The notes under the pieces: generated by a model
Databases searched by the model: none
Told to the model about the DNA's origin: nothing
The model's input: only the letters and a program-made list of their open reading frames with translations
In this document: positions 8,413-33,252 of the stretch, piece after piece
Position numbering within the stretch: position 1 is the stretch's first letter
Layout of the letters: the number at the start of each line of letters is the position of its first letter
Virus record (IMG/VR): IMGVR_UViG_3300018481_000023
Span: 485-64,484 of that record
Origin: a virus
Taxonomy: Duplodnaviria > Caudoviricetes
Length of the DNA stretch: 64,000 bases
Direction: 5' to 3' (one strand)
Made by a program: the position numbers and the translations under genes

Positions 8413-8445
8413 GGACCAAAATGCTACCCAAAGATTTTTATGGGT

Positions 8446-8491
8446 GACCATAAGATACCCTCTTGCTTTGACCACTGGAAACCCTTATAAT
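8446..8491 (+). promoter_or_regulatory. sigma70-like promoter with GACC box
   Basis: GACCATAAGATACCCTC-TTGCTT-17nt-TATAAT. Confidence 0.8.
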
Positions 8492-8571
8492 GAGAGAGTA
8501 AGCACACCAACCTCAGGAAGAGGTGGGCGTATTTGCAATCCCGCCCAGAAGGGCATCATAAGGAGGCCACA

Positions 8572-8883
8572 ATGGCGAAACAAGAACCAGCGGTCGAGGC
8601 TCCCGAAGAGCAGCCAGCCGCGGAAGCAGCTGATAAGCGCGCAATCGTCCTACCAAACGGCGAGCGTCGTGCCGACTACATCCGTCGGCGTTGGAAAGAG
8701 GGCGCGAGCCGCTCGGAGATTACTGCCGAGCTGAATACGAAGGAACTTTACAGCGGCAAGCCCGGTGGCAAGATTCCTTACCAGATTGTGTTCCAGGCTA
8801 CCAAGGGTCAACCTGGTGGTCCGGCGCCCAAGACCGAGGAACCGGCTTCTGAAGAGCAGCCGGCCGAGGAACCTGCCGAGTAA
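8572..8883 (+). CDS. small DNA-binding (HTH-like) protein with acidic E/P/A-rich ends
   Basis: AGGAGG RBS; RADYIRRRWKEGASRSEITAEL...IPYQIVFQAT resembles the HTH of 1078..1503. Confidence 0.65.
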   Translation: MAKQEPAVEAPEEQPAAEAADKRAIVLPNGERRADYIRRRWKEGASRSEITAELNTKELYSGKPGGKIPYQIVFQATKGQPGGPAPKTEEPASEEQPAEEPAE

Positions 8884-12484: not shown

Positions 12485-13093
12485 ATGGCTCGCCTACTCG
12501 TCATTTGTGCCAAACGGTACAACGGACATGAACTCTGGACCCTCTTGGGGGTCCTCAAGCAAAGGGGCCATACCTTCGAGGTGGTATCTCAAGCCACCCT
12601 AATCCGCGACGAGCTCACATTACGGCCGAACACCATCGACCGTACCGTCTACGAAGTCCATCCAGACAAGACGGGTGAGTTCGACGCGGTAGTAGTTGTC
12701 TCTGGGAACATGCAGGACACAGAGGCCTACTGGACCGATAAGCACGTGGAGGCCCTCTTGCACGAGTTCCGGGGTGCAGGAAAAGTGGTTGGGGCTATAT
12801 GTTGTTCCGTTCCTACTCTCGCCCCGGTCGCAAAAGGCGTCCACGTGTCCTATTTCCCCTTGGTCCGATCAAAGCAACGGCTACGTAACTACGGGGCCAT
12901 TCTGGAGCCCGTCTCCCTCACGGTCGATGTGGAAGCCCGTATGGCTACAGCGGAGAACCAGATGATATCCCAGATGTGGGCAGAGGAGCTCTCTAACCTC
13001 CTCGAAGACCTGCCTCCAAAGTATCACCTGCAGCCTTCCGGGTTCGTACCTAAAGGGAGCCCTCGAATTCTGCAGGCGAGATCCACGAGATGA
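12485..13093 (+). CDS. DJ-1/PfpI family protein
   Basis: TAAGGAGG RBS; YNGHEL, FDAVVVVSG, GKVVGAICCS nucleophile elbow. Confidence 0.8.
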   Translation: MARLLVICAKRYNGHELWTLLGVLKQRGHTFEVVSQATLIRDELTLRPNTIDRTVYEVHPDKTGEFDAVVVVSGNMQDTEAYWTDKHVEALLHEFRGAGKVVGAICCSVPTLAPVAKGVHVSYFPLVRSKQRLRNYGAILEPVSLTVDVEARMATAENQMISQMWAEELSNLLEDLPPKYHLQPSGFVPKGSPRILQARSTR

Positions 13094-17655: not shown

Positions 17656-17731
17656 CCTCGGCAAGCTGATAGGAGGCCTCGGCATTCTCATCATTGTCAT
17701 CACCTCCTTAATGATCGGTCCCAACGTATGA
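17552..17731 (+). CDS. small membrane protein
   Basis: AAGGAG RBS; C-terminal TM LIGGLGILIIVITSLMIG; ATGA coupling to thyX. Confidence 0.5.
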   Translation: MPLKRPPTPRLRVQAKERAKGRTVSLVPEVWLANNLGKLIGGLGILIIVITSLMIGPNV

Positions 17732-18711
17732 ACGCCGAGGAAGATTTCAAGGCCATAGTAATCGCCGACTCCATCTCGCCATACGGCATCCGAATGGTCA
17801 CGTTCCAGCTTCACTACCCGAGGTTCATCCACGCGGAGTTTATGACCCACCGAGTGTTCAGTCGCAATGCTCGCTCATCAAGGGCAGTACCGGTCAAGAA
17901 GCTTCTGAAGGAGAAGCCGTACCTACCTAAGTTCATGAAGAATCAGCCTGGCATGCAGTCCTTCGAAGAATTGGACCCCCGCGAACAAATTAGTGCCCGG
18001 GATGAGTGGAACGAAGCAGCGTGGTTCTGCCAGGCTACAGCAGGGGAACTCAACACCCTTGGGGTACACAAGCAGTGGGCGAACCGGATGCTTGAGTGGT
18101 TCGGCTTTATTGACGTGGTTGTCTCGAGTACCGACTGGGCTAACTTCTTCAACCTCCGTGATCACCCAGCTGCGATGCCCGAGATCCAACTCCTGGCCCA
18201 AGCCATGCGGGACGCAATGGACAGAAGCGTCCCCATACTCCGCTCGGATACTTGGCACCTTCCATATATCACCGAAGAAGACCGGGAATCTCACGAAAGC
18301 GGTGACCTTCTGCTGGCATCTACAGCACGTTGTGCACGGGTCTCCTACGCGCCCTTTGACGCAGAGCATCCTGACTTTGGTAAAGACCTTGAACTTGCCC
18401 ATAAGCTCATTGGCTCTGACCCACTTCACGCAAGCCCCGCTGAACACCAAGCCTTTCCCGACTCCATCAAAGAGGACGCATGGGTTGATCTAGCTTTGCA
18501 CGGAAACCTATACGGATGGGTTCAGTTCCGCAAAACCCTCGTCGGTGAGCAGGTGGCCGATAGAGGGAGAACAATTAAGCAATGCCTAGACTACTACGAA
18601 AGGTACAGAAATGCCGAAGAACAAAGACAAGGCGAAGCCGAAGACCCTAGCGCCCTCAAAGGACCCGAAGACAAGCACGGAAACCTCCAAGGCTGGGATT
18701 CGCGTCTATAG
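17728..18711 (+). CDS. thyX: FAD-dependent thymidylate synthase
   Basis: YPRFIHAEFMTHRVFSRNARSSRAVP, HKQWANRMLE, WHLPY, ARCARVSY, HASPAEHQA. Confidence 0.92.
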   Translation: MNAEEDFKAIVIADSISPYGIRMVTFQLHYPRFIHAEFMTHRVFSRNARSSRAVPVKKLLKEKPYLPKFMKNQPGMQSFEELDPREQISARDEWNEAAWFCQATAGELNTLGVHKQWANRMLEWFGFIDVVVSSTDWANFFNLRDHPAAMPEIQLLAQAMRDAMDRSVPILRSDTWHLPYITEEDRESHESGDLLLASTARCARVSYAPFDAEHPDFGKDLELAHKLIGSDPLHASPAEHQAFPDSIKEDAWVDLALHGNLYGWVQFRKTLVGEQVADRGRTIKQCLDYYERYRNAEEQRQGEAEDPSALKGPEDKHGNLQGWDSRL

Positions 18712-23824: not shown

Positions 23825-24070
23825 GTGCGTTCGGCGGCTGAACATCGTGGAGATGCACTCAACCAATTGTCCAGTTTGGGAAGGGCAAGTATTCCTAATG
23901 CGGCGGTGTTGATGGGAATCCATCACCACACACTACGTGTATACATCGAACTGGGGCTGGTACAGCCCTTCTGGATCGGTGAAAGGGCGTGGATAACCGC
24001 AAAGGAAATTACCCGCTTCAAGAGGGACGAGGAGTACATCAAGAGTCAACGACGGAAGCTCGCCGGATAG
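23825..24070 (+). CDS. MerR/excisionase-like HTH protein
   Basis: SIPNAAVLMGIHHHTLRVYIELGLV...IGERAWITAKEITRF. Confidence 0.6.
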   Translation: MRSAAEHRGDALNQLSSLGRASIPNAAVLMGIHHHTLRVYIELGLVQPFWIGERAWITAKEITRFKRDEEYIKSQRRKLAG

Positions 24071-24078
24071 AGGCCAAC

Positions 24079-24114
24079 GGGAGAGAGTGTTGCACGGCGC
24101 TCTCTCCCAACTTT
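24079..24114 (+). terminator. stem-loop upstream of queC
   Basis: GGGAGAGAGTG/CGCTCTCTCCC stem then AACTTT. Confidence 0.45.
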
Positions 24115-24132
24115 CCGGAATTGAGGCCAAAA

Positions 24133-24846
24133 ATGGATCACAAGGTATTCGTCCTCCTCTCAGGAGGTGTCGACAGTACTACCACACTCGCCATCGCGGG
24201 GAAAGAATTCCCCGCCGATATCATCGAAACCGTTACCATTGATTATGGGCAACGTCACATTCGCGAGAAGGAATGTGCACATTTCCAGTCAGTGGTCTAT
24301 GCCAACATTTCCCACACCATTGATGCCAAAGGTCTACTGACCGGCATGTTGGTTGAAAAGGGTGCAGCCAACGAGGACATCCCTAATGCTTCCTACGCCG
24401 ATCTTCCCAAGGGAATTTCCCCTACTTATGTTTCGTTCCGCAACGGAACTATGCTTAGCCTACTGGCTGCACGCGCGCAATCCTGGATTATGGACCAGCA
24501 AAAAGTTCAGCCCGACGAAGAGTTCAACGCTACCCTCTACATCGGAGTCCACGCCGACGACGGAGTCAACTGGGCTTACCCCGATTGTACTCCGGAGTTC
24601 ATCGGAGCTATGGCCAATGCCATTTTTGTGGGCACCTATAATCGCGTACGCCTACGCGCTCCGCTTCAGTACGACAACAAGATCGAAGTAGTCGCGAAAG
24701 GCCTCAGGCTAGGCGTGAATTACCAAGAAACTTGGTCCTGTTACCGTGGTGAAGACGCTCACTGCGGTACCTGCCCGACTTGTCGCTCCCGCAAGGAAGC
24801 GTTCGAGATGAATAGCGTCCCAGATCCGACGAGGTACGCAGCATGA
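24133..24846 (+). CDS. queC: 7-cyano-7-deazaguanine synthase
   Basis: LLSGGVDST, DYGQRH, TYVSFRN, YPDCTPEF, TWSCY, HCGTCPTCRSR. Confidence 0.95.
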   Translation: MDHKVFVLLSGGVDSTTTLAIAGKEFPADIIETVTIDYGQRHIREKECAHFQSVVYANISHTIDAKGLLTGMLVEKGAANEDIPNASYADLPKGISPTYVSFRNGTMLSLLAARAQSWIMDQQKVQPDEEFNATLYIGVHADDGVNWAYPDCTPEFIGAMANAIFVGTYNRVRLRAPLQYDNKIEVVAKGLRLGVNYQETWSCYRGEDAHCGTCPTCRSRKEAFEMNSVPDPTRYAA

Positions 24847-25298
24847 TGCAAGTAATTAAGACGTATGGCCACGAGCGAGGACTCTCCGCTACTTTCCGCC
24901 AGCATAGGTGCAACACGCACTGCAGGTTTATCCACGGCTATGCACTAGCCTTCACTCTTACCTTCGAATGTCCCGAAGACGAGGTAGATGATAACGGTTG
25001 GGTAATCGACTTCGGCGGGCTTAAGAAGGTGGAGCAGTTCCTTAAGGATAACTTCGACCACAAGTACCTTGCCGCTGGAGACGACCCCCTGCTCTCCAAT
25101 CTGGAGCGTGATGAGGAAGAGGGTCTTATCCAGTTAATCGTTCTTCCCGACGGAGTAGGCTGTGAGGCTTTCACGAAGTACGTGGCCATGCAGGTCGAGG
25201 AGATGCTTGCCTGCGGTGACTTCGGTGATACGCAGGCTCAGCTGGTGAGCGTGGAAGTACGGGAACACGGATCGAATGGAGCTCGCTATGTCCTCTAA
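24843..25298 (+). CDS. queD: 6-carboxy-5,6,7,8-tetrahydropterin synthase
   Basis: HCRFIHGY, WVIDFGGLK, FDHKY, GCE, VEVRE. Confidence 0.92.
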   Translation: MMQVIKTYGHERGLSATFRQHRCNTHCRFIHGYALAFTLTFECPEDEVDDNGWVIDFGGLKKVEQFLKDNFDHKYLAAGDDPLLSNLERDEEEGLIQLIVLPDGVGCEAFTKYVAMQVEEMLACGDFGDTQAQLVSVEVREHGSNGARYVL

Positions 25299-26190
25299 CC
25301 CCGATGAGACAATCCGCAAGGGCATAGACGATCTTCCGGCTGACCTCGAAGAGCCGCCTATCTCTCAGGAGGACAAGAAGGAGAAGAAGCTCGCCATAGT
25401 CGAGATCTTCGGACCCACGATTCAAGGCGAGGGGCCTCATGCTGGGATGAAGACAATGTTCATCCGCTTTGGTGGATGTGACTATCGTTGTGTCAAATGT
25501 GATTCCCTACATGCTGTTCTCCCCACCGCAGTCAGAGCCCATGCGCGCTACATGACTCCGGACGAAATTATCGACGAGCTGGTCGAGAAGCGAGGTAATT
25601 CGGGAACACACTGGGTAGTGTTTTCAGGAGGCAACCCATGCATGTGGGATCTCAACCGCCTCATCTCCTACGTTCACGGAGCCGGCTTCGGGATAGCCGT
25701 AGAAACCCAGGGTACCATCCTACCAGACTGGCTTATTCGTTGCCAACAGGTTACCATTTCCCCAAAATCACCTGGCATGGGAGAAAAGTTCGAGCCGGAC
25801 AAATATGTCGCCATGATCACTCGGCTCTACGACGCGGGGACACCATTTGCTACCAAGGTGGTTGTGTTCTCGGCCCTGGACATTGAGTTTGCCGTCGAGG
25901 TCTGGAACATTATGAATACGGTGGTGCCTATCAATCTCGAACCATTCATGATGTTGAGCCTCGGCAATCCTTACCCCCCTATCATAACGCAGGAGGGTGT
26001 GCTACGTGAGAACCCCTCTCTGACAGGGGAATCAAAGCTGGACGATCACAGTGACCGCGATCACAGACTGATCCTTCTAGACAACTACCGCCAGCTGCTG
26101 GAAGAGTACGTGCAGGATCCTCGTATCCACCACATGCGCTTCCTTCCACAGCTTCACGTCTTAGCTTGGGGCAACGAAACGGGGAGATGA
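25288..26190 (+). CDS. queE: 7-carboxy-7-deazaguanine synthase (radical SAM)
   Basis: EIFGPTIQGEG, FIRFGGCDYRCVKCDS, SGGNP, ETQG, ISPK, LPQLH. Confidence 0.93.
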   Translation: MSSNPDETIRKGIDDLPADLEEPPISQEDKKEKKLAIVEIFGPTIQGEGPHAGMKTMFIRFGGCDYRCVKCDSLHAVLPTAVRAHARYMTPDEIIDELVEKRGNSGTHWVVFSGGNPCMWDLNRLISYVHGAGFGIAVETQGTILPDWLIRCQQVTISPKSPGMGEKFEPDKYVAMITRLYDAGTPFATKVVVFSALDIEFAVEVWNIMNTVVPINLEPFMMLSLGNPYPPIITQEGVLRENPSLTGESKLDDHSDRDHRLILLDNYRQLLEEYVQDPRIHHMRFLPQLHVLAWGNETGR

Positions 26191-26194
26191 CTCA

Positions 26195-27004
26195 ATGGCC
26201 CACTTTATGCCTGTCGCACCTATCCAGGTCTTGGAACAACTTTACGATCACGATCCTGCTGTGTTCGGGAACTACCATCTACTGCTTGCTCATCACACCG
26301 TACAGTACGCAGATCGCTTCCATGCACTATTCTCGCGGATTGCTGCGGATGGGCTTCTTACGCCGACTATCATCATGGATAACTCGGTGGTCGAACAAGG
26401 CGGCTCGGTTGACATCGGGGTAATGAAGAACGCAGTTGCGGCATGCTTGCCTGACACCAACGAGGTCATTTCCGTTCTCCCCGATGTCATGGGTGATGGG
26501 CTTGAGACCCGTAAGGCAACGGAAGCAGCCTACGAACGGTGGGTAGCAGAGATCCCAGGACCTCCGAATTTCATGGCTGTCTGCCAGGGCAATGACATGC
26601 CTGACTTCGAGCAAAGTGTTCAATTCTTTGCCGATCGGGACTACTTCCCAGACGTCAACTATCTAGGGGTGCCCCGATACCTCGTCTATCTGATTCACAC
26701 GCGTACGTGGGCCATGGATTTCATCGGCCCCTACGTCGAGGACTACAAAACCAACCACATGATCCACCTGCTGGGGTATTCGGACCTTACTCTCGATGAC
26801 CTCGAAGTCTCCAACTACCCAACAGCCTTTAGCATCGACTCTGCAGTTCCCCTGCGGACCGAAGGATCATTCCGTTTCGGCGACCGTACTATGCCACGCC
26901 CCAAAGACTGGTTCGATACCGCTTCCATCGGAGGCAACATGATTGCCAACCTCTCCTATGCACGTCAGATGCACTCGTCAGGGGGCCATGATCCAGAGGT
27001 GTGA
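26195..27004 (+). CDS. dpdA: divergent DpdA/TGT-like deazaguanine transglycosylase
   Basis: IIMDNS, LPDVMGD, MAVCQG, IHLLG, SIDSA motifs of the TGT barrel; directly follows queCDE. Confidence 0.62.
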   Translation: MAHFMPVAPIQVLEQLYDHDPAVFGNYHLLLAHHTVQYADRFHALFSRIAADGLLTPTIIMDNSVVEQGGSVDIGVMKNAVAACLPDTNEVISVLPDVMGDGLETRKATEAAYERWVAEIPGPPNFMAVCQGNDMPDFEQSVQFFADRDYFPDVNYLGVPRYLVYLIHTRTWAMDFIGPYVEDYKTNHMIHLLGYSDLTLDDLEVSNYPTAFSIDSAVPLRTEGSFRFGDRTMPRPKDWFDTASIGGNMIANLSYARQMHSSGGHDPEV

Positions 27005-29498
27005 GCATTGTCCCTTTAGGACAGGCCTTGTAGGGTCCAAGGGTCCAGAGGACTCCCCTTTTGTTATCGTGGGCGAAAGTCCTGGCACCTCTGAACTAAG
27101 GGCCGGGCTACCCTTCGTAGGCGAGTCGGGAAAACTCTTAAACGCCGTCCTAGAACAGGTTGGACTCAACTCCCTCGAGCCCAAGTGCGCCCCATACTAC
27201 GTGAACGCGCTTCAATGCTATCCTCCGCCGAAAGCCAAGGAGAATGGCGCCACAAAGATGACGGAGGCTACCAAAGCATGCCAACAACGCCTAATCGAGC
27301 AGATAGGAAAGTACCCCCGCAAGGTGATCCTCTGCCTAGGAGCAGCCGCTTCTTGGAGCGTGACGAACAGCTTTGGCATCAAGATCACACAGGAACGAGG
27401 ACGTGTACTGCCTTCCCCATATGCCTCAGAGGGCGTCGTATTAGCTGTACATCCAGCCTTTCTAATGCGTCAAGGTGGTGGCTTGCCCTTCTGGAAGAAA
27501 GACCTTGCCAGTGCTATCAAGCTGCTACGGGGTGAGGCTCTCTCAACATGGCGACCACCAACTTGGGGCCTTATCCAAACACCTACGCAACTTATCGACC
27601 TAGCTACGGAGTGCTGGAATGCCCCATATAACACGGCGGATCTGGAGACGGATCAACTTCACTGGTACGGCGGCCGCATACTCTGTGCTGGTCTTACTCG
27701 CGGTGCTGGGGATCATGTCGATATTATACCAGAAGAGGTTTTTTACCGAAACATTGGGCTTATCCGAAGACTGTTCAGTCGAGGACACTGGAGTTTTCAC
27801 AACGCGCTGTTCGATGCCACCTGGCTAGGAGCTCCCCAACACGAGATCCCTATCGAGGTAGGCGACGACACCATGTTGATGTCGTACTCTCTAAACGAGA
27901 ACCGAGGCTTCCATGACTTGGACCAAGTTGCTCAAGCGCGCATTGGGGCTCCGCCGCATAAGAAGTCCATCGAGAAGTACCTCCCCAAGAAGGGTGCCTC
28001 CTATCGCAACATTCCCCTTCCGGAGCTGTACAAATACAACGCTTACGACCTTTCCAAACAACACCTTATCCACCCCTCTCTCAAAGAAGACATCCTGGCA
28101 GATCCCCACTCGAAGAAGCTGTACTACGGACTCCTCGTACCCGCCATTCCCGAGTTCGTAAAGATGCGCCTCAGGGGTGTGCATGTCGACCGTGATATCG
28201 TCATCCGCAACCAGGGCATTCTACAAGGACAGATTGATGAGCTGGACAGGCAGATCAACGTCTATGCGCACAAGCATATTGGTCGTGCAATCAACGTTGG
28301 ATCCCCAATCCAGATGGCGGATCTATTGTATGACAGGATGGGGCTACGAATACCTGGAACCCGTTCCACGGACAAAGACACCATCATCCAGATCCAACGC
28401 CGATACGACCATCCCATTTGTAACATCCTCCTCAACCGGCGTGAGCTCGCCAAGACCAAGGGTACCTACGTCGACAATCTTCTCTGGAGGAAGGAGAACA
28501 ACAAGATCATCCTCGGAGCGGGACATCTTAAACCCGACGGAAAGGTATATCCAGATTTCAAACTACACGGGACCACTACGGGTAGACCTGCAGGGTCAGC
28601 CCCAAACCTCCTAAACCAACCTAGAGGCCCCCTCATCAGGGGACAGTATAGAGCTGCCCCCAAGAAGCTCTTCGTAGAGGTCGATGAGAACCAAGCCGAG
28701 CTGCGTTCCCTAGCCATTATGTCCAACGACGCGGTGCTCCTCGACATCTACACGAAGAACGAGGTATCCATTCACGACACTACTACCGCTGCCTTCTACG
28801 GCTCCATAGAACAGATGAGGGAGAACAAGTTCATCCTGGATAAGGTGATCATGCAGCTCCAATACCACAAAGAAGACCGGAGCCCAGAGGCCCTGTATAA
28901 GGAAGCGAAGATGCGCGGTAAGGCCGTGAACTTCGGAGTCGTGTATGGTCGAGAAGCCTACTCCTTGGCAATGGAGTTCAACATCTCCGTTCACGAAGCC
29001 CAAAGGTGGATCGATACCTGGTTTGAGACTTATCCAGGGGCTGCGAAGTTTATCCGGTGGTGTCGATCTCGTCCTCGTCTCCGCAGAGACCTTATCACCA
29101 ACTTCGGGCGTAAGAAGCGTCATGGTGTTGTGTCCCGCGAAGCACTCCATGCTATAGAGAACGAGGCCGCGAATTTCCCCCACCAGTCGACAGCCAGTGA
29201 CATCATGGTAGAGACTCTAATACGGGCTGGCCCAGTGCTCCGCGAGAGGTGGGATGCACATCCGTGGCTCGAACTGTACGACGCCGTGTACTATGAGATT
29301 GACATTGACGAGGTCAAGGTTCGAGAGTCAATCGAATATGTCCAGAGCGTCATAACTCAGGTGCCCAAAGATTATGGTCTTACTCGAGTACCGTTCATTG
29401 GGGATGCAAAGATTGGGTTAGACTGGGGACATATGAAGGATTGGAAAGGGTCGATCGAACTTACCCTCGGTGAGGAAATACTAAGGCTAGCAGCATAG
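26988..29498 (+). CDS. polA: family A DNA polymerase with N-terminal uracil-DNA-glycosylase-like domain and 3'-5' exonuclease
   Basis: CEHC, VGESPG..E...GLPFVGESG, HPAFLMR (UDG family 4-like); DLET, HNALFD, YNAYD (exo); TTTGR, NLLNQP, DENQAELR, KAVNFGVVYG, LYDA. Confidence 0.92.
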   Translation: MIQRCEHCPFRTGLVGSKGPEDSPFVIVGESPGTSELRAGLPFVGESGKLLNAVLEQVGLNSLEPKCAPYYVNALQCYPPPKAKENGATKMTEATKACQQRLIEQIGKYPRKVILCLGAAASWSVTNSFGIKITQERGRVLPSPYASEGVVLAVHPAFLMRQGGGLPFWKKDLASAIKLLRGEALSTWRPPTWGLIQTPTQLIDLATECWNAPYNTADLETDQLHWYGGRILCAGLTRGAGDHVDIIPEEVFYRNIGLIRRLFSRGHWSFHNALFDATWLGAPQHEIPIEVGDDTMLMSYSLNENRGFHDLDQVAQARIGAPPHKKSIEKYLPKKGASYRNIPLPELYKYNAYDLSKQHLIHPSLKEDILADPHSKKLYYGLLVPAIPEFVKMRLRGVHVDRDIVIRNQGILQGQIDELDRQINVYAHKHIGRAINVGSPIQMADLLYDRMGLRIPGTRSTDKDTIIQIQRRYDHPICNILLNRRELAKTKGTYVDNLLWRKENNKIILGAGHLKPDGKVYPDFKLHGTTTGRPAGSAPNLLNQPRGPLIRGQYRAAPKKLFVEVDENQAELRSLAIMSNDAVLLDIYTKNEVSIHDTTTAAFYGSIEQMRENKFILDKVIMQLQYHKEDRSPEALYKEAKMRGKAVNFGVVYGREAYSLAMEFNISVHEAQRWIDTWFETYPGAAKFIRWCRSRPRLRRDLITNFGRKKRHGVVSREALHAIENEAANFPHQSTASDIMVETLIRAGPVLRERWDAHPWLELYDAVYYEIDIDEVKVRESIEYVQSVITQVPKDYGLTRVPFIGDAKIGLDWGHMKDWKGSIELTLGEEILRLAA

Positions 29499-29502
29499 GA
29501 CG

Positions 29503-29523
29503 GACCCAAAAAATCTTTGGGTC
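29503..29523. repeat. inverted repeat / operator-like palindrome
   Basis: GACCCAAA-AAATC-TTTGGGTC immediately upstream of a promoter. Confidence 0.55.
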
Positions 29524-29569
29524 GCCTATAATTTTGGCACTAGATTTCCACCACGAAGTATGTTATAAT
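29523..29569 (+). promoter_or_regulatory. sigma70-like promoter
   Basis: ATTTTGGCAC-TAGATT-17nt-TATAAT. Confidence 0.75.
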
Positions 29570-29597
29570 GGGGTATAAGCAAAAGAGAGGACAGCGT

Positions 29598-29864
29598 GTG
29601 GACACTGACGACGATCGACCTGGTGCAATCATCCCATCTATCACGATGAGGAACTCGTTAGAGGAAGCGGCTAATAGATATTGGCGCGCTGCCCTCATGT
29701 GGAACTCACGTATTCCTACCAACTGGACGACTGGGGATATGATCCACGAGTGCGTGGATATGCAGCGGTACAGAGGGGCAGTGATCCCTCTTGTCAATAA
29801 GCTCCTGGGCGAAGTAATCCAGGGTAATTTCGTTGTTCATCGTGAGCACGAAGTAGGAGGCTAA
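29598..29864 (+). CDS. hypothetical protein
   Basis: GTG 29598 after GAGAGG RBS (the listed ATG lies inside the -10 box). Confidence 0.55.
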   Translation: MDTDDDRPGAIIPSITMRNSLEEAANRYWRAALMWNSRIPTNWTTGDMIHECVDMQRYRGAVIPLVNKLLGEVIQGNFVVHREHEVGG

Positions 29865-29865
29865 T

Positions 29866-30546
29866 ATGGTTTTGCACTCGTATGTACCCCCGGAAGATTC
29901 TCTATTGACTACTCGGGCCCTAGCTAATGAACTCGTGGCCCTTATTCCTGATAAAGACACACAGCGCATATGCGAGAAGTCCCTTCTGCTAGCCCCTGAC
30001 ATTGTTCTCTGCGTGAAGGCCTTTCACAAGCTCTACGGCTTGCCTGTTTTACGTCCTTCCCAAGCGCGAGAGGATTTCTCCCATATTGCGCCAGAACGCC
30101 TGGCCATGAGGTTCGCACTTATCGAGGAGGAGTACATAGAACTCTGCGAGGCTATGGACTTCAAGGTCGAACTGAGTTACTCCTACATGAACGAGGACGA
30201 AGAGTGGGTGCCGGCCGAAGATCTGCAGGACGCGATCGTTAACACAGAGAACCGTGACATGGGTGGTGTGGGCGATGCGTGTGAGGATCTCAAATACGTT
30301 ATCACCGGCTTCGAGCTGGAGATGGGCATCGATCCGCATGCGTGCCTGGAGGAGGTGCAGGCTTCTAACCTCACGAAGATGGGGGACGATGGTTTGCCAC
30401 TATTGAGGGAAGACGGCAAAGTGCTTAAGGGGCCGATGTATCAGGAAGCAGACTGTGACGATGCACTTCGTACGCGTGGTATGATGTGTGCCCGTCCTGG
30501 TCCGCTCTCTACTGCTCCCTATACAGAACCGGTGCTGACGGAATAG
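29866..30546 (+). CDS. MazG-like / all-alpha NTP pyrophosphohydrolase
   Basis: VKAFH, LIEEEYIEL, DACEDLKYV, EVQASNLTK, REDGKVLKG. Confidence 0.82.
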   Translation: MVLHSYVPPEDSLLTTRALANELVALIPDKDTQRICEKSLLLAPDIVLCVKAFHKLYGLPVLRPSQAREDFSHIAPERLAMRFALIEEEYIELCEAMDFKVELSYSYMNEDEEWVPAEDLQDAIVNTENRDMGGVGDACEDLKYVITGFELEMGIDPHACLEEVQASNLTKMGDDGLPLLREDGKVLKGPMYQEADCDDALRTRGMMCARPGPLSTAPYTEPVLTE

Positions 30547-30624
30547 CTCTTCACCATAGCACCCGGCCCGCTAGGCTGCGGCCCTGTGGACCAAATTGAC
30601 CAGGAGGCCAAAAGGAGAAGAAAG

Positions 30625-30777
30625 ATGGACGTACCTACACTGATAGTGCTAGCAGTTATTATCTGCCTAGCCGTTGTGTTAGCCCGGGTGTACAAGGGCG
30701 ATACGACTACGACAGCAGCGGCTGCGGTGGGGCTGGTGTTGAGTATCATCCTGCTGTTCGCACCTAACATCTACTAG
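30625..30777 (+). CDS. small two-TM membrane protein (possible holin)
   Basis: AAGGAG RBS; two hydrophobic helices in 50 aa. Confidence 0.5.
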   Translation: MDVPTLIVLAVIICLAVVLARVYKGDTTTTAAAAVGLVLSIILLFAPNIY

Positions 30778-30787
30778 GAGTACCCGC

Positions 30788-31522
30788 ATGTCAATTGACC
30801 TGGATCACGTCTACAAGGACAGCAATGGCCGTGCCGTTCGTATTATAGGCTTGTGCGGACCTAAGTACTGCGGCAAGGATACAGCTGCTAGTAGGCTGAT
30901 CCAGGTCAATGATGACTACGAGAAGCTTGTATTCCGGCGAGCTCCAATGGCCGAAGGGGTCAAGAAGATCTGCTCAGAAGTCTTCGGATGGTCCTGGGAG
31001 CTTCTAGAAGACCCTGTGCTCAAGGAAACGAAGCTGGACGCATGGCCTCACATCGAACCTCGTTGGCCTATGATGGATATTGCCAACTGGATGAGGGCGA
31101 AGTATGGGGGAGATGTCTGGTGCCGCAGATGGGCTAGAATTATGCATCAGCTTAACCATGCTTGGGGTGCACACGTTATTACCGACGTGAGATTCCCTGA
31201 GGAGGTCGATATGATCTCTTCCTACGGTGGGCTGCTTATCTATATCAACCGACCCGAAGCGGAGGAAGCTCTGGCTAAGGGGAAAGCGGCCGGCAGCGAG
31301 ATGGCTAAGAACCAATCGGAGTCTCACTATGACTTCCTGCGTAAGCAGGCGCACTTCGAAGTGAACAATACGGCTTCGGTATACTACCTTCAGATGCAGA
31401 TGATGACCTGTGTCCGCAAGCACTATGACCACTGGGCCTACTGGCCTGACCTTGTTGAACGTTACGCACTTGGAGGCCCTAATGACGAATCCGCACCACT
31501 CGCACACCCAGTACGTGCGTGA
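30788..31522 (+). CDS. deoxynucleoside monophosphate kinase
   Basis: IIGLCGPKYCGKDT P-loop; VITDVRFPEE; SES. Confidence 0.85.
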   Translation: MSIDLDHVYKDSNGRAVRIIGLCGPKYCGKDTAASRLIQVNDDYEKLVFRRAPMAEGVKKICSEVFGWSWELLEDPVLKETKLDAWPHIEPRWPMMDIANWMRAKYGGDVWCRRWARIMHQLNHAWGAHVITDVRFPEEVDMISSYGGLLIYINRPEAEEALAKGKAAGSEMAKNQSESHYDFLRKQAHFEVNNTASVYYLQMQMMTCVRKHYDHWAYWPDLVERYALGGPNDESAPLAHPVRA

Positions 31523-32219
31523 GTTAGCCGACGACAAAACCGACCCGGCCCTTGGAAAGAAGGTACGCAACTACCTAATCGAAAAAGGCCTAGTCAAGCT
31601 TCCACTACCCTCTCCGAATCCTCAGTATAATCCTCGTGCAGCGGTGCAGCAGATCTCCCAGGGCATATCTTCGGGGCTCGGCTTCCTGGGGCTCGACATG
31701 GAAGACCCGTCTCTGCGCGAAACACCGTTGCGCTATGCCAAGATGTTGGTGGGAGAATTGACGGTAGGGCTAAACTTCGATTTCTTCCCTAAGATGACCG
31801 TCATCCCTAACGGCGATGCGGAGGGTGTGGGTAGATATGACCAGATGATCCTGGAGAAGAAGATTGAGGTCATGTCACTTTGTGAACACCATCTCCAGAC
31901 CATCGATGGGTATGCTCATGTAGCTTATATCCCAGACGAGAAGGTGTTAGGCCTCTCGAAGATGGCACGTGTGACGGAGTTCTTCTGCCGCCGGCCACAG
32001 ATCCAGGAGCGCCTAACCGAACAAATCTACCACGCACTGGCGTTCTGTGTAGGCACACCTGATGTGGCTGTGGTCATTGAGGCTACGCACTACTGTATGA
32101 AGGCCCGCGGCGCTTTGCAGCACACTGCTTCGACGATTACCGACAAGCTTGGTGGTCGCTTCTTGACGGTCCCCTCTCTGCGGCAGGAATTCTTCGATAG
32201 GGTGAACAATGGCCGATAA
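31482..32219 (+). CDS. folE: GTP cyclohydrolase I
   Basis: ETPLRYAKM, SLCEHH, GLSKMAR, RRPQIQERLT, HYCMKARG. Confidence 0.95.
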   Translation: MTNPHHSHTQYVRELADDKTDPALGKKVRNYLIEKGLVKLPLPSPNPQYNPRAAVQQISQGISSGLGFLGLDMEDPSLRETPLRYAKMLVGELTVGLNFDFFPKMTVIPNGDAEGVGRYDQMILEKKIEVMSLCEHHLQTIDGYAHVAYIPDEKVLGLSKMARVTEFFCRRPQIQERLTEQIYHALAFCVGTPDVAVVIEATHYCMKARGALQHTASTITDKLGGRFLTVPSLRQEFFDRVNNGR

Positions 32220-32679
32220 AGTCATAGAGTATAAGCATCTCACCTGGCAGGAAATAGCCTGGATGATTGACATAACCATCGCCGAGATGCACCGCAACAA
32301 CTATGTGCCTTCATACATTGTGCCCATCGGATATGGGGGTATTATTCCAGCGGCGATGTTTACGTACAGGTACTGCAAGACTAGGCACGTTCCGCTTCCT
32401 ATGCTGCCTCCAGTGCTTTGTACCTCGTACGACTCGGACAATAGGCGTTCCGAGGTTAGATCTGTTTGGCCCAGAGAAGTTGGTTCTCACATCGATACCG
32501 AGGTGACCCTGTTCATCGACGACATCTGTGACTCCGGATCAACTATACGCCACATTAAGCAGACTATGCCCAAGTCCAAGTTCTTCTGCCTGGTTACGAA
32601 GGACGACGACACCCCAGATTGGTACGCCACATACGACTCAGCGCCTGTGTGGTGGGTGTTTCCGTGGGAGAAAGGATAG
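32209..32679 (+). CDS. purine (xanthine/guanine-type) phosphoribosyltransferase
   Basis: LTW, IGYGGIIPA, LFIDDICDSGST PRPP-binding loop, WWVFPWE C-terminus typical of Gpt-like PRTases. Confidence 0.85.
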   Translation: MADKVIEYKHLTWQEIAWMIDITIAEMHRNNYVPSYIVPIGYGGIIPAAMFTYRYCKTRHVPLPMLPPVLCTSYDSDNRRSEVRSVWPREVGSHIDTEVTLFIDDICDSGSTIRHIKQTMPKSKFFCLVTKDDDTPDWYATYDSAPVWWVFPWEKG

Positions 32680-32684
32680 CGTTC

Positions 32685-32984
32685 ATGTCGTCGGCAGTGG
32701 AGCGGGCCGGTTGTGCTGGTGAGAAGACGGTTCTTCCGATAGCCGGGCATTCTGGGTACTTCGTGACTAATTCGGGAGAAGTGTGGGGACCTAGAGGGCC
32801 GCGCAGACTGTTTAAGAGCGCCTATGGCTATCTACGGGTATATATCCAGCGTAAGAACTATTCCGTGCACAGACTGGTATGTGAGGCCTTTCATGGCCCA
32901 CCACCTGAAGAGGATTCTCCTGCCTTGCATCGGGATAAGAATAGATTGAACAACGTCGCCTCCAACCTGTACTGGGGACTTTGA
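32685..32984 (+). CDS. NUMOD4-HNH endonuclease (short)
   Basis: YFVTNSGEV, GYLRV, SVHRLVCEAFHG, LHRDKNRLNNVASNLYW. Confidence 0.78.
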   Translation: MSSAVERAGCAGEKTVLPIAGHSGYFVTNSGEVWGPRGPRRLFKSAYGYLRVYIQRKNYSVHRLVCEAFHGPPPEEDSPALHRDKNRLNNVASNLYWGL

Positions 32985-32985
32985 G

Positions 32986-33252
32986 ATGACACTGCCTAGG
33001 GACGAATTCTTTGGGGGCGATAGGACCTGCGGACGATGTTCGTACCATCGGGCTACAGAAGACGAGGAAGAGGACTTCGTGGCTTGTGTCTGTCCCGTGG
33101 AGGAGAATCCTATTTGGGCGATCCGCAAGTTCTCCCGGATTGGAATGAGAGACGCAGAAGCGTATAAGGGAACTCACGAATACCTAGGACAGGATCCTGG
33201 CAAGATGCGCAGTGACGACGGAGTAGCCTGTGAGGCCTTTGTTAAGGATTAG
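32986..33252 (+). CDS. Cys-rich hypothetical protein
   Basis: CGRC...CVCP...CEAF; last rightward gene. Confidence 0.55.
   Translation: MTLPRDEFFGGDRTCGRCSYHRATEDEEEDFVACVCPVEENPIWAIRKFSRIGMRDAEAYKGTHEYLGQDPGKMRSDDGVACEAFVKD

What the first reader, a model, noticed from the sequence alone, without database searches (positions are those of the whole stretch)
24133..32679. 7-deazaguanine locus with PRTase, dNMP kinase and NTP-PPase: possible pre-replicative base substitution
Established: FolE-QueD-QueE-QueC make preQ0, and DpdA inserts it into DNA after replication. Seen: no QueF, ArcS or Gat domain was recognised, so preQ0 is the predicted base. The DpdA-like protein is short and divergent. 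folE overlaps a Gpt-like phosphoribosyltransferase and is co-transcribed with a dNMP kinase and an NTP pyrophosphatase, while polA overlaps dpdA. Inference: PRTase and kinase could convert preQ0 into a nucleotide, the PPase could deplete dGTP and PolA could incorporate it, by analogy with dZ genomes. The simpler alternative is that the PRTase recycles guanine released by DpdA back into the FolE pathway.
Basis: partly seen in the sequence, partly recalled or inferred. Interest (0 to 1): 0.72.

Follow-up and report, generated by a model that had tools for sequence, protein, structure and literature searches.

The report
Phage guanine-replacement operon with salvage enzyme
This complete uncultured phage genome carries the genes for making the modified base preQ0 and a compact base-swapping enzyme related to those that replace all guanine in some phage DNAs; the neighbouring phosphoribosyltransferase, kinase and pyrophosphatase look like optional nucleotide-metabolism helpers, not a new route into DNA.

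Summary
On the + strand of a 64.5 kb, CheckV-complete virus record lie QueC, QueD, QueE, a 269-aa unknown protein ("X"), a UDG-exonuclease-PolA fusion, a 98-aa ORF, a MazG-like pyrophosphatase, a dNMP kinase, FolE and a Gpt-like PRTase.

No Pfam, PHROG, NCBIfam or PDB sequence model recognises X. It folds as a TGT-type TIM barrel, and profile comparison links it to the DpdA3 family of Cellulophaga phage phiST (96.3%, E 1.8e-9, full length, same invariant Asp/Gln/His motifs). DpdA3 phages have all guanine replaced.

In 58 of 59 related loci a PolA match follows X, and QueC/QueE/FolE matches lie mostly upstream. The helpers are rare. In whole records, a PRTase is in 5 of 20, a dNMP kinase in 3 of 20, and a MazG-like match in 1 of 20 (weak). 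This genome has no RNR, QueF, ArcS, GATase, dUTPase or NDT.

The PRTase keeps the PRPP motif and the Asp and Lys shared with E. coli Gpt. I read it as 6-oxopurine (guanine) salvage feeding FolE.

This scan noted the same pattern before on other DNA (59 notes, at least 55 genomes).

The parts
24133..24846 (+). QueC (7-cyano-7-deazaguanine synthase), with a C-terminal Cys-rich zinc motif; no Gat domain
   Evidence: PF06508, E 6.8e-43. phrog_1550, E 6e-50. TIGR00364 scores 122.8 bits, below its cut-off of 150.3.
24843..25298 (+). QueD-like 6-carboxytetrahydropterin synthase (T-fold)
   Evidence: PF01242, E 6.7e-15. phrog_2389, E 5.2e-39.
25276..26190 (+). QueE (7-carboxy-7-deazaguanine synthase, radical SAM)
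   Evidence: TIGR03365, E 8.9e-57, 192 bits against a cut-off of 206. phrog_2076, E 6e-36.
26195..27004 (+). X: a compact (269 aa) TGT-fold protein in a DpdA3-like sister clade; the predicted 7-deazaguanine base-exchange enzyme
   Evidence: AF2 model with pLDDT 94. Best structural matches are ArcTGT (Z 15.8) and DpdA 7ui4 (Z 14.2). The phiST 259-aa protein matches with Foldseek E 6e-10 and TM 0.70/0.72. hhalign against the DpdA3 profile gives 96.3%, E 1.8e-9. Invariant D62, D97, Q131, H191, G194 and D215-S216.
26988..29498 (+). Family-4 UDG-like domain + 3'-5' exonuclease + family A DNA polymerase, overlapping the end of X by 17 nt (the ORF is open from the TTG at 26943)
   Evidence: PF00476 8.4e-50, PF03167 2.1e-18, PF01612 1.8e-6. 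Start region read. The Fe-S cysteines and the GE..PG / HPA motifs are nearly invariant in 28 orthologues.
29568..29864 (+). 98-aa protein of unknown function, conserved just downstream of PolA
   Evidence: jackhmmer finds it in the window and 10 loci. No family match.
29866..30546 (+). All-alpha MazG/PRA-PH-type NTP pyrophosphohydrolase, sitting where close relatives carry a ribonucleotide reductase
   Evidence: PF01503, E 1.4e-8. phrog_671, E 1.3e-24. PDB 3nl9 at 1.9e-8 and DR2231 at 5.5e-3. RNR at this position in L001, L004 and L005.
30788..31522 (+). Phage-type deoxynucleoside monophosphate kinase
   Evidence: PF21448, E 3e-7, 30.7 bits against a cut-off of 27.1. phrog_139, E 1.9e-31.
31410..32219 (+). 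GTP cyclohydrolase I FolE. The true start is probably later in the ORF, since the family match begins at ORF residue 50
   Evidence: NF006824, 218 bits against a cut-off of 202. PF01227, E 7.5e-52.
32209..32679 (+). Gpt-like (xanthine-guanine type) type I phosphoribosyltransferase; its start overlaps the FolE stop by 11 nt
   Evidence: NF006613, E 3.2e-14, below cut-off. Matches P. horikoshii purine PRTase 1vdm at 2.4e-7 and E. coli XGPRT 1a95 at 3.7e-7. Invariant G43, D105, D108, G110, T112, K131 and P152 together with E. coli Gpt.

Best explanation
This is a DpdA3-like 7-deazaguanine DNA-modification module built into the replication operon of a complete 64.5 kb phage genome.

FolE, QueD, QueE and QueC convert GTP into preQ0. 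Sequence alone cannot exclude that QueC stops at the amide ADG.

The 269-aa TGT-fold protein X is a distant sister of the DpdA3 enzymes found in phages with fully replaced guanine. I infer that it exchanges guanine for the deazaguanine base in phage DNA. It is made together with the UDG-exo-PolA polymerase through an overlapping stop/start.

The Gpt-like PRTase is an accessory 6-oxopurine salvage enzyme. It most likely turns guanine, including the guanine released by each exchange, back into GMP, which becomes the GTP that FolE consumes. Its gene overlaps folE.

The dNMP kinase and the MazG-like pyrophosphatase are ordinary phage nucleotide-metabolism genes. They cover re-phosphorylation of dNMPs and a dUTPase-like or house-cleaning function next to ThyX. 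They are not steps of a dedicated deazaguanine nucleotide route.

Shown here: gene identities, fold, homology to DpdA3, synteny, and the rarity of the helpers. Inferred: the DNA substrate of X, the extent of replacement, the substrate of the PRTase, and the specificity of the pyrophosphatase.
For: X as a DpdA3-like enzyme:
- The AF2 model has pLDDT 94 and pTM 0.91.
- TGT-family chains lead both PDB searches: Cap10 9ntn at E 1.9e-6 plus many TGTs; ArcTGT Z 15.8, DpdA 7ui4 Z 14.2, Cap10 Z 14.2 and TGT Z 13.9.
- In BFVD, rank 2 is the 259-aa phiST protein (E 6.4e-10, TM 0.70/0.72). By length it is CGPG_00065, the founding DpdA3 (PMC10516641, passages read).
- hhalign of the X family (50 sequences) against 34 phiST-type DpdA3 sequences gives 96.3%, E 1.8e-9, over 239 columns. 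D62/D51, D97/D81, QG131/QG116, HxLG191/182 and DS215/205 are aligned.
- The Bacillus BSTP phage gene is hit by both X (2e-4) and phiST DpdA3 (8e-5).
- An ESM Atlas neighbour cluster carries PF23859 DpdA in 17% of its members.

Synteny:
- Of 59 related loci, 58 have a PolA match after X. It begins within 1.3 kb of the start of X in 53 loci and 1.7-3.0 kb away in 5. L059 ends inside X.
- QueC, QueE and FolE matches lie mostly upstream; L021's QueE match and the FolE matches of L001, L004 and L005 lie downstream of X.

Helpers are accessory:
- PF00156 is in 5 of 20 whole records, and in 3 of the 12 that are at least 90% complete.
- DNMK is in 3 of 20 records (1 of 12).
- PRA-PH is in 1 of 20 records, below cut-off.
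- In the locus ORFs the MazG-like gene is found only in the window.

PRTase as 6-oxopurine salvage:
- It aligns with E. coli XGPRT and P. horikoshii purine PRTase.
- G43, D105, D108, G110, T112 and K131 are invariant with E. coli Gpt.
- It lies directly after FolE in the window, L001, L004 and L005.
- A different, Hpt-type PRTase sits inside the que cluster of L028.

No other route is encoded: the genome has no RNR, NDT, QueF, ArcS or GATase_7.
Against: - No activity of any DpdA3 has been shown. Cui et al. report that their tests of DpdA3 in E. coli failed (PMC10516641).
- X matches neither PF01702 nor PF23859. Only 1 of 50 family members touches PF23859, at E 0.007.
- hhalign of the X family against a single E. 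coli Tgt sequence finds nothing.
- Generic TIM barrels score Z 13-14, close to the TGT matches.
- X is strongly acidic (pI 4.65, net charge -19.5; family median -12) and lacks the zinc subdomain of TGT. This is unexpected for an enzyme that must work on every G of duplex DNA.
- Two unrelated PRTase types recruited into que clusters, the tight FolE-PRTase overlap, and the proven CDG-specific PRTase TubE (PMC6112128) keep a deazapurine substrate possible.
- The roles I assign to D108 (N7) and K131 (O6) are recalled from the HGPRT/XGPRT literature and were not tested here.
Confidence: 0.6

Rival explanations
1. Nucleotide-level exchange by X, following the T4 hydroxymethyl-dC logic. The MazG-like enzyme turns dGTP into dGMP. 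X swaps guanine for preQ0 on dGMP (or dGTP). The dNMP kinase and host NDK raise the product to dPreQ0TP. The co-translated PolA incorporates it. The PRTase recycles the released guanine. Replacement would then be pre-replicative, but through X and not through the PRTase.
For: - The gene order X-PolA-g98-MazG-dNMPK-FolE-PRTase contains every step.
- X and PolA overlap and are linked in 58 of 59 loci.
- X is very acidic and lacks a zinc or nucleic-acid-binding subdomain.
- DpdA3 phages have 100% replacement, and DpdA3 could not be shown to modify DNA in E. coli (PMC10516641).
- The same paper cites ADG nucleoside in the cytoplasm of CP220-infected cells.
Against: - The MazG-like gene and the dNMP kinase are missing from most relatives that keep X and PolA: 1 of 20 and 3 of 20 records. 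The scheme would have to lean on host enzymes there.
- All characterised TGT/DpdA enzymes act on polynucleotides (established knowledge).
- No TGT-family enzyme is known to act on free nucleotides (recalled).
- The nearest solved relatives of the MazG-like protein are 3nl9 and the DR2231 group, which I recall as dUTP-directed.
Confidence: 0.12
2. The Gpt-like PRTase phosphoribosylates preQ0 (or CDG), as TubE/ToyH do in deazapurine antibiotic pathways. Kinases and a reductase then yield dPreQ0TP, the pyrophosphatase depletes dGTP, and PolA incorporates the analogue.
For: - TubE is a proven CDG + PRPP phosphoribosyltransferase (PMC6112128, abstract and results passages).
- PRTases of two types occur inside or beside que clusters.
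- Close relatives carry an RNR between PolA and the dNMP kinase.
Against: - A PRTase is in only 5 of 20 related records, and in 3 of the 12 near-complete ones.
- This genome has no RNR, and a dNMP kinase does not act on a ribonucleotide.
- Every relative keeps X, which this model would make redundant.
- The Asp and Lys shared with E. coli Gpt are kept.
- The PRTase sits beside FolE, the GTP consumer, and not beside QueC, the preQ0 producer.
Confidence: 0.06
3. The PRTase, dNMP kinase and MazG-like enzyme are generic nucleotide-supply genes with no specific tie to the deazaguanine pathway. The FolE-PRTase adjacency is a by-product of grouping nucleotide-metabolism genes together.
For: - They lie in a block that in relatives also holds RNR.
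- ThyX and a ligase lie elsewhere in the same early region.
- The helpers are patchy across the family.
Against: - The PRTase follows FolE directly in all four Gpt-type cases (window, L001, L004, L005). In L028 a different PRTase type lies between QueE and FolE. That is a repeated association in two architectures.
- Earlier notes of this scan report the same pairing in many unrelated phages (unchecked AI notes).
Confidence: 0.2

Closest known systems
[quoted passage not shown] Source: Cui et al., NAR 2023, PMC10516641; abstract and passages read.
   Same: - A compact (~260 aa) TGT-fold enzyme without a Pfam TGT hit.
- Profile homology of 96.3% with the same invariant residues.
- It lies next to FolE/QueD/QueE genes and close to the DNA polymerase.
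- phiST also has a MazG-like gene in the cluster.
   Different: - X is only about 17% identical to DpdA3 and forms a sister clade with the Brevundimonas, Bacillus BSTP and Weizmannia phage proteins.
- Here QueC is present and no DpdL, QueF or tailoring enzyme was found, so the end product would be preQ0 or ADG.
- The partner polymerase is a UDG-exo-PolA fusion that gave no tblastn match (E <= 0.01) in the phiST and MA9V-3 loci I held (L062 covers 30000-79114 of the phiST record, L064 is 18.8 kb of a 103 kb record).
- The Gpt-like PRTase is not mentioned in that paper (0 occurrences of 'phosphoribosyl').
- Its Supplementary Data S1 lists the DpdA3 members. I could not see it, and it may already include some of these phages.
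Brevundimonas phages vB_BpoS-MaInes and vB_BpoS-StAshley (ON529866.1, ON529865.1)
   Same: For MaInes: the same gene order QueC-QueD-QueE-(small ORF)-X-PolA-small ORF-...-dNMP kinase-FolE-xanthine PRTase. X is 36% identical in MaInes and 35% in StAshley, and the N-terminal half of PolA about 42% in both. StAshley's gene order was not fetched.
   Different: - MaInes carries a class I RNR where this genome has the MazG-like gene.
- X is annotated there as a hypothetical protein.
- Searches for 'Brevundimonas phage' + 'MaInes' and for Brevundimonas + phage + deazaguanine listed no paper on their DNA modification.
Bacterial DpdA (preQ0 insertase, PDB 7ui4) and tRNA-guanine transglycosylases
   Same: The TIM-barrel fold: Z 14.2 for 7ui4, Z 15.8 for ArcTGT and Z 13.9 for bacterial TGT, over 235-242 residues.
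   Different: - No sequence-level match: PF01702 and PF23859 give nothing.
- X has no zinc subdomain and is about 100-300 residues shorter.
- Bacterial DpdA modifies under 0.1% of G and needs DpdB (PMC10516641 passage; the DpdB requirement is recalled).
E. coli xanthine-guanine PRTase Gpt (PDB 1a95/1nul) and P. horikoshii purine PRTase (1vdm)
   Same: Same size. Shared GG loop, the DD..D.G.T PRPP motif, the Lys of strand 5 and the C-terminal W..PW(E/D) motif.
   Different: - 27% identity to E. coli Gpt.
- NCBIfam score 52.8 against a cut-off of 138.
- Only 2 other relatives found by the word-based search of 5.8 billion proteins.
- Substrate untested.
TubE/ToyH deazapurine PRTases of tubercidin and toyocamycin biosynthesis (PMC6112128)
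   Same: A PRTase encoded together with FolE, QueD and QueE homologues. TubE joins CDG to PRPP in vitro.
   Different: - Those clusters lack any TGT/DpdA and make free nucleoside antibiotics.
- No TubE or ToyH sequence was available to me, so no sequence comparison was made.
dZ (2-aminoadenine) phage genomes: PurZ, DatZ, MazZ, DpoZ
   Different: - No PurZ-type nucleotide-level synthase.
- PolA scores 47.5 bits against the DpoZ cut-off of 500.
- A base-exchange enzyme is present instead.

Membership tests
TGT/DpdA superfamily | TGT-type (beta/alpha)8 barrel fold | tested here: met
   The model has pLDDT 94. The top VIA rows are ArcTGT (Z 15.8, rmsd 3.7, 236 aa), DpdA 7ui4 (Z 14.2) and Cap10 (Z 14.2). 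Foldseek returns Cap10 and many TGTs at E 2e-6 to 4e-4. Atlas structure rows include PF01702 clusters at TM 0.70-0.73. Caveat: unrelated TIM barrels reach Z 13-14.
TGT/DpdA superfamily | Match to the curated sequence models (PF01702 TGT, PF23859 DpdA) | tested here: not met
   No hit for X. Of 50 family members, 1 matches PF23859 at E 0.0069. The phiST-type DpdA3 set also fails: 0 of 34.
TGT/DpdA superfamily | Pair of catalytic aspartates, with the Gln and Gly of the base pocket | tested here: inconclusive
   D62, D97, Q131, G194 and D215 are invariant in 50 sequences and align with the invariant D51, D81, Q116, G185 and D205 of DpdA3. Their equivalence to Asp102/Asp156/Gln203/Gly230/Asp280 of Z. 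mobilis TGT is my recollection of the motifs. No residue-level superposition was available.
TGT/DpdA superfamily | Zinc-binding C-terminal subdomain | tested here: not met
   There is no conserved Cys/His cluster among the invariant or near-invariant columns of A1, and the protein ends soon after the barrel.
DpdA3 subfamily | Sequence-profile homology to phiST CGPG_00065 and its relatives | tested here: met
   hhalign of A1 against A6 gives 96.3%, E 1.8e-9, over 239 columns. With only 2 DpdA3 sequences it gave 68.5%, E 4.6e-5. Pairwise BLASTP is not significant (E 0.065). This makes X a sister clade and not a close member.
DpdA3 subfamily | Encoded beside CDG/preQ0 synthesis genes and near the polymerase | tested here: met
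   Seen in the window, in 58 of 59 related loci and in the phiST layout.
DpdA3 subfamily | Complete replacement of dG in virion DNA | not testable with these tools
   This needs LC-MS/MS of virion nucleosides.
preQ0 pathway (FolE, QueD, QueE, QueC) | All four enzymes present and recognisable | tested here: met
   FolE is above the NCBIfam cut-off. QueC, QueD and QueE are above Pfam cut-offs but below the NCBIfam equivalog cut-offs. PHROG annotations agree.
Xanthine-guanine PRTase (Gpt) | Type I PRTase fold motifs (PPi loop, PRPP motif) | tested here: met
   GYGG and FIDDICDSGST align with SRGG and VIDDLVDTGGT of 1a95. The invariant residues are listed.
Xanthine-guanine PRTase (Gpt) | Curated equivalog score | tested here: not met
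   NF006613 scores 52.8 bits against a cut-off of 138. PF00156 scores 23.6 against 26.3.
Xanthine-guanine PRTase (Gpt) | 6-oxopurine substrate (guanine, xanthine, hypoxanthine) | not testable with these tools
   K131 and D108 are conserved with E. coli K115 and D92. Their roles in O6 and N7 recognition are recalled.
MazG / all-alpha NTP pyrophosphohydrolase | Family model above cut-off | tested here: met
   PF01503 scores 35.4 bits against a cut-off of 21.3. PDB 3nl9 matches at 1.9e-8. Specificity (dUTP or dGTP) is not testable here.
dZ-type pre-replicative system | DpoZ-type polymerase and a PurZ-type nucleotide synthase | tested here: not met
   NF038380 DpoZ scores 47.5 bits against a cut-off of 500. 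No adenylosuccinate-synthase-like gene appeared among the ORFs I scanned. The minus-strand structural half of the genome was not scanned.

The most novel reading that the evidence does not exclude
X is not a DNA transglycosylase but a nucleotide-level base exchanger. Together with the MazG-like dGTPase, the dNMP kinase and the co-translated PolA it would form a T4-hmC-style pre-replicative pathway: dGTP -> dGMP -> dPreQ0MP -> dPreQ0TP -> DNA. The Gpt-like PRTase would close the loop by returning the expelled guanine to FolE. This would explain how DpdA3-type phages reach 100% replacement, and it would overturn the published view that all 7-deazaguanine DNA modification is post-replicative.
Probability: 0.1. 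Interest if true: 0.85.

Novelty: new variant of a known kind. Interest (0 to 1): 0.38.

Why it matters
The X clade is very large: 2623 representatives at 50% identity with E <= 0.001. Pfam, PHROGs and NCBIfam do not see it, and the isolate genomes annotate it as hypothetical or give it wrong names (hypothetical in the Brevundimonas, Weizmannia and BSTP8 records; "NadR", "integrase" and "polynucleotide kinase" in the other three BSTP records). Recognising it as DpdA3-like flags a large group of environmental phages as likely carriers of guanine-replaced DNA. That matters for restriction evasion and for sequencing and cloning artefacts.

The cultured Brevundimonas phage MaInes shows the same gene order, including the PRTase, and its sister StAshley carries X and PolA homologues of similar identity. 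They give a direct experimental handle on two open questions: how DpdA3-type enzymes achieve complete replacement, and whether released guanine is recycled. The guanine-salvage helper appears in none of the papers my searches returned (listings only; 0 occurrences of 'phosphoribosyl' in PMC10516641).

Tried and rejected
- Megablast of 24000-33000 against 50,697 phage records found no match.
- phmmer and a profile hmmsearch of X against PDB sequences returned 0 hits at E <= 10.
- hhalign of the X profile against single-sequence E. coli Tgt found nothing (prob 0.1). The link to canonical TGT therefore rests on fold and on the DpdA3 bridge.
- Pairwise BLASTP of X against phiST CGPG_00065 was not significant (E 0.065).
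- Complex prediction with PolA residues 1-730 (28-row alignment) and X (50-row alignment) gave "no answer": ipSAE 0.01 and 0.00 against a mark of 0.32, and the controls were not run. This is neither for nor against binding. PolA had to be cut at residue 730 to stay under 1000 residues.
- I asked whether the UDG-PolA fusion is specific to X phages. It is not: Serratia and Lysinibacillus phages have it at 95-99% query coverage, and none of them was among the 7 records that matched X.
- I asked whether the DJ-1/PfpI protein (12485-13093) could be a Gat-like amidotransferase for dG+. I rejected this as unsupported. It lies 11 kb away, and GATase_7 is absent.
- tblastn of the window's PRTase, MazG-like protein and g98 against the loci at 1e-4 missed even the annotated MaInes PRTase. 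I replaced it with jackhmmer on the locus ORFs and with Pfam six-frame searches of whole records. Those searches can still miss very divergent copies: the window's own PRTase scores only 23.6 bits on PF00156.
- The 795-aa ORF of L003 at the RNR position was not scanned.
- I did not compare the PRTase with TubE or ToyH because no sequence was available.
- Supplementary Data S1 of PMC10516641 (the list of DpdA3 members) could not be read.
- Papers: for PMC10516641, PMC6112128 and bioRxiv 10.64898/2026.04.15.718813 I read only the passages returned by 'find'. All other papers I saw only as search listings.

Full report
WHAT IS THERE

The window is bases 485-64484 of a 64,484-base IMG/VR virus record that CheckV rates 100% complete. 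It has no tRNA genes, and its GC content is 51-58% in 2-kb windows.

The finding's coordinates hold a same-strand block of ten genes:
- QueC 24133-24846
- QueD 24843-25298
- QueE 25276-26190
- a 269-aa protein "X" 26195-27004
- a family-4-UDG + 3'-5' exonuclease + family A polymerase fusion, 26988 (or 26943)-29498
- a 98-aa ORF 29568-29864
- a MazG/PRA-PH-type pyrophosphohydrolase 29866-30546
- a phage-type dNMP kinase 30788-31522
- FolE, ending at 32219
- a Gpt-like PRTase 32209-32679

The PRTase start overlaps the FolE stop by 11 nt. The PolA ATG at 26988, preceded by AGGGGG, overlaps the stop of X by 17 nt.

Upstream on the same strand are replication and recombination genes: a DUF3854 protein, a ligase, ThyX, an SNF2 helicase, a PD-(D/E)XK nuclease and an AAA_24 protein.

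Over the whole record there is no QueF (only a 12.7-bit T-fold echo inside FolE), ArcS/DUF5591, GATase_7, ribonucleotide reductase, trimeric or dimeric dUTPase, or nucleoside deoxyribosyltransferase. The positive controls worked for each search except dUTPase_2, where no control genome passed the cut-off.

WHAT X IS

X has no hit in Pfam, PHROGs or NCBIfam and no hit among PDB sequences, even with a 50-sequence profile. It nevertheless belongs to a large family. The word-based search found 170 relatives, and an exhaustive profile search found 2623 representatives at E <= 0.001, of which 484 are at E <= 1e-30. All of the 150 listed are small proteins: 147 have 242-332 aa and three are shorter, 154-204 aa.

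The family alignment shows the invariant motifs IMDNS (D62), LPDVMG (D97), QG (131-132), PR (160-161), HLLG (191-194) and IDSAVP..R (D215, S216, R221).

The AlphaFold model is confident (pLDDT 94.1, pTM 0.91) and is a (beta/alpha)8 barrel. The structure searches gave the following:
- Foldseek against the PDB puts the TGT-family protein Cap10 first, followed by many tRNA-guanine transglycosylases.
- The Foldseek-independent search ranks archaeosine TGT (Z 15.8), the DNA preQ0 insertase DpdA 7ui4 (Z 14.2), Cap10 (Z 14.2), bacterial TGT (Z 13.9) and QTRT2 (Z 13.8) among the top seven. Unrelated TIM barrels follow closely at Z 13-14, so fold alone is not decisive.
- Against predicted viral structures, rank 2 is a 259-aa phiST protein (E 6.4e-10, TM 0.70/0.72). 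By length this is CGPG_00065 (780 nt), the protein on which Cui et al. founded the DpdA3 subfamily. They report an HHpred match of 98.83% to PF01702 (PMC10516641, passages).

I then built a 34-sequence profile of phiST-type DpdA3. hhalign against the X family gives 96.3% probability and E 1.8e-9 over 239 columns. The five invariant motif positions line up: D62/D51, D97/D81, QG131/QG116, HxLG191/HxLG182 and DS215/DS205.

A Bacillus BSTP phage gene is hit by both X (2e-4) and phiST DpdA3 (8e-5) at the same place, and it belongs to the X family at 99.4%.

X is therefore a distant sister clade of DpdA3, about 17% identical. Neither clade matches PF01702 or PF23859 by hmmscan: 1 of 50 and 0 of 34 members respectively.

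CONTEXT ACROSS RELATIVES

A pattern-plus-tblastn scan of IMG/VR returned 57 loci. I added two isolate loci: Brevundimonas phage MaInes and Weizmannia phage Youna2. Of these 59 loci, 58 have a PolA match downstream of X. It begins within 1.3 kb of the start of X in 53 loci and 1.7-3.0 kb away in 5. L059 ends inside X. QueC, QueE and FolE matches lie mostly upstream of X; the exceptions are L021's QueE match and the FolE matches of L001, L004 and L005, which lie downstream.

In nearly all loci that hold a whole polymerase ORF, the neighbouring polymerase aligns from about residue 4-30 of the window's PolA, so it includes the UDG-like domain. The four Fe-S cysteines, GE..PG and H-P-A are nearly invariant in 28 aligned orthologues. 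The same fusion also occurs in Serratia and Lysinibacillus phages, none of which was among the 7 records matching X, so it is not specific to this system.

The conserved core is therefore the que genes, X and PolA.

THE HELPERS ARE NOT CORE

jackhmmer over the 4026 ORFs of the window and loci gave these counts:
- PRTase: window, L001, L004, L005 and L028. The L003 contig ends just before the expected position.
- dNMP kinase: window, L001, L003, L004 and L028.
- MazG-like gene: the window only.

Of the 26 IMG/VR loci with at least 6 kb upstream and 8 kb downstream of X, 3 have the PRTase.

Six-frame Pfam searches of 20 whole records that carry X (the window's own record not included) gave:
- PF00156 in 5 of 20 records, and in 3 of the 12 virus records that are at least 90% complete.
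- DNMK in 3 of 20 records (1 of 12).
- PRA-PH in 1 of 20 records, below cut-off.

In the closest clade a ribonucleotide reductase sits where this genome has the MazG-like gene. It is class I by annotation in MaInes, and carries Ribonuc_red_lgC plus TSCPD domains in L004 and L005.

THE PRTase

Its best matches are P. horikoshii purine PRTase (2.4e-7) and E. coli XGPRT (3.7e-7). It scores 52.8 bits on the Gpt equivalog model against a cut-off of 138.

In an eight-sequence alignment that includes E. coli Gpt, the invariant positions are G43, D105, D108, G110, T112, K131 and P152. D108 and K131 correspond to D92 and K115 of Gpt. I recall these as the residues facing N7 and O6 of the purine, but that assignment was not tested here.

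The Gpt-type PRTase follows FolE directly in the window, L001, L004 and L005. In L028 a different, Hpt-type PRTase (VEDIVDTG ... FVVGYG) lies between QueE and FolE, next to a SLOG/LOG-like protein and a dUTPase. Two PRTase types recruited to the same pathway argue for a real functional link.

I read that link as guanine supply and recycling. Each exchange consumes one GTP-derived base and releases one guanine, and FolE is the GTP-consuming entry enzyme. The alternative, a deazapurine PRTase, has a biochemical precedent in TubE, which joins CDG to PRPP (PMC6112128). It would, however, give a ribonucleotide in a genome without an RNR, and it is dispensable in most relatives.

THE PYROPHOSPHATASE AND THE KINASE

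The nearest solved relatives of the MazG-like protein are 3nl9 (1.9e-8) and the DR2231 group (5.5e-3). I recall DR2231 as dUTP-specific. The genome has ThyX but no recognisable dUTPase, so a dUTPase-like role is plausible. dGTP depletion is not excluded. The dNMP kinase is of the common phage type (phrog_139).

MECHANISM, WITH STATUS

- Shown: the identities, fold, homology and synteny above.
- Established: FolE, QueD, QueE and QueC make preQ0 from GTP. DpdA-family enzymes exchange guanine in DNA. Phages with DpdA3 have fully replaced guanine (PMC10516641, Table 1 and discussion passages).
- Inferred: X inserts preQ0 (or ADG) into this phage's DNA, probably to a high level. The PRTase salvages guanine. 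The other two enzymes are general helpers.
- Against: no DpdA3 has ever been shown to be active, and X is very acidic (pI 4.65, charge -19.5; family median -12) and lacks a zinc subdomain. I therefore keep about 10% for a nucleotide-level exchange by X, in which MazG, the dNMP kinase and PolA would act as in the T4 hydroxymethyl-dC pathway.

COMPARISON AND NOVELTY

This is a DpdA3-like system in a sister clade. Its features are a plain preQ0 pathway, a fixed link to a UDG-PolA polymerase and, in a minority of genomes, a guanine-type PRTase beside FolE.

The PRTase helper appeared in none of the papers my searches returned (listings only). 'Phosphoribosyl' occurs 0 times in PMC10516641.

This scan has noted the same pattern before on other DNA: 59 notes in at least 55 genomes. 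Several follow-ups reached the same reading, a helper PRTase and not a new route. Those are unchecked AI notes. My tests here were independent of them, except that one note prompted the dUTPase check.

VERDICT

The feature is a new variant of a known kind, of moderate interest.

Noticed in passing
window 26988-27590 (N-terminal ~200 aa of PolA): The polymerase carries an apparently intact family-4 uracil-DNA-glycosylase domain. The four Fe-S cysteines, GE..PG and H-P-A are nearly invariant in 28 orthologues. The domain is present in nearly every whole PolA ORF that follows an X gene. Its role beside a base-exchange enzyme is unexplained.
   Followed up: partly
window 29568-29864: A 98-aa protein with no family match is conserved directly after PolA in the window and 10 related loci (jackhmmer).
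   Followed up: partly
window 12485-13093: A DJ-1/PfpI-family protein (PF01965, E 1e-9) lies in the early region. It has a class I amidotransferase-like fold and no evident link to the que genes.
   Followed up: no
window 17728-18711: A ThyX-type thymidylate synthase is present, while the genome lacks any recognisable dUTPase, dCMP deaminase-type neighbour or RNR. The MazG-like enzyme may supply dUMP.
   Followed up: partly
window 32619-32984: An HNH_3 endonuclease ORF starts inside the last 61 nt of the PRTase gene, at the end of the operon.
   Followed up: no
L028:4289-7017: In a 112 kb relative, the que cluster between QueE and FolE contains a SLOG/LOG-like protein (PF18306/PF02481), an Hpt-type PRTase, a sigma-70-like factor and a dUTPase. 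A LOG-like nucleotide N-glycosidase next to a PRTase is a second hint of purine-base handling.
   Followed up: partly
L065 (Bacillus phage BSTP12, MW354678.1) 7899-8687, and sister records: The X homologue is annotated as NadR, integrase/recombinase or polynucleotide kinase in three of the four BSTP records, and as hypothetical in BSTP8. These are probably mis-annotations of a DpdA3-like enzyme.
   Followed up: partly
window 26195-27004: X has a calculated pI of 4.65 and a net charge of about -19.5 at pH 7. The family median is about -12. This is unusual for an enzyme expected to work along duplex DNA.
   Followed up: partly
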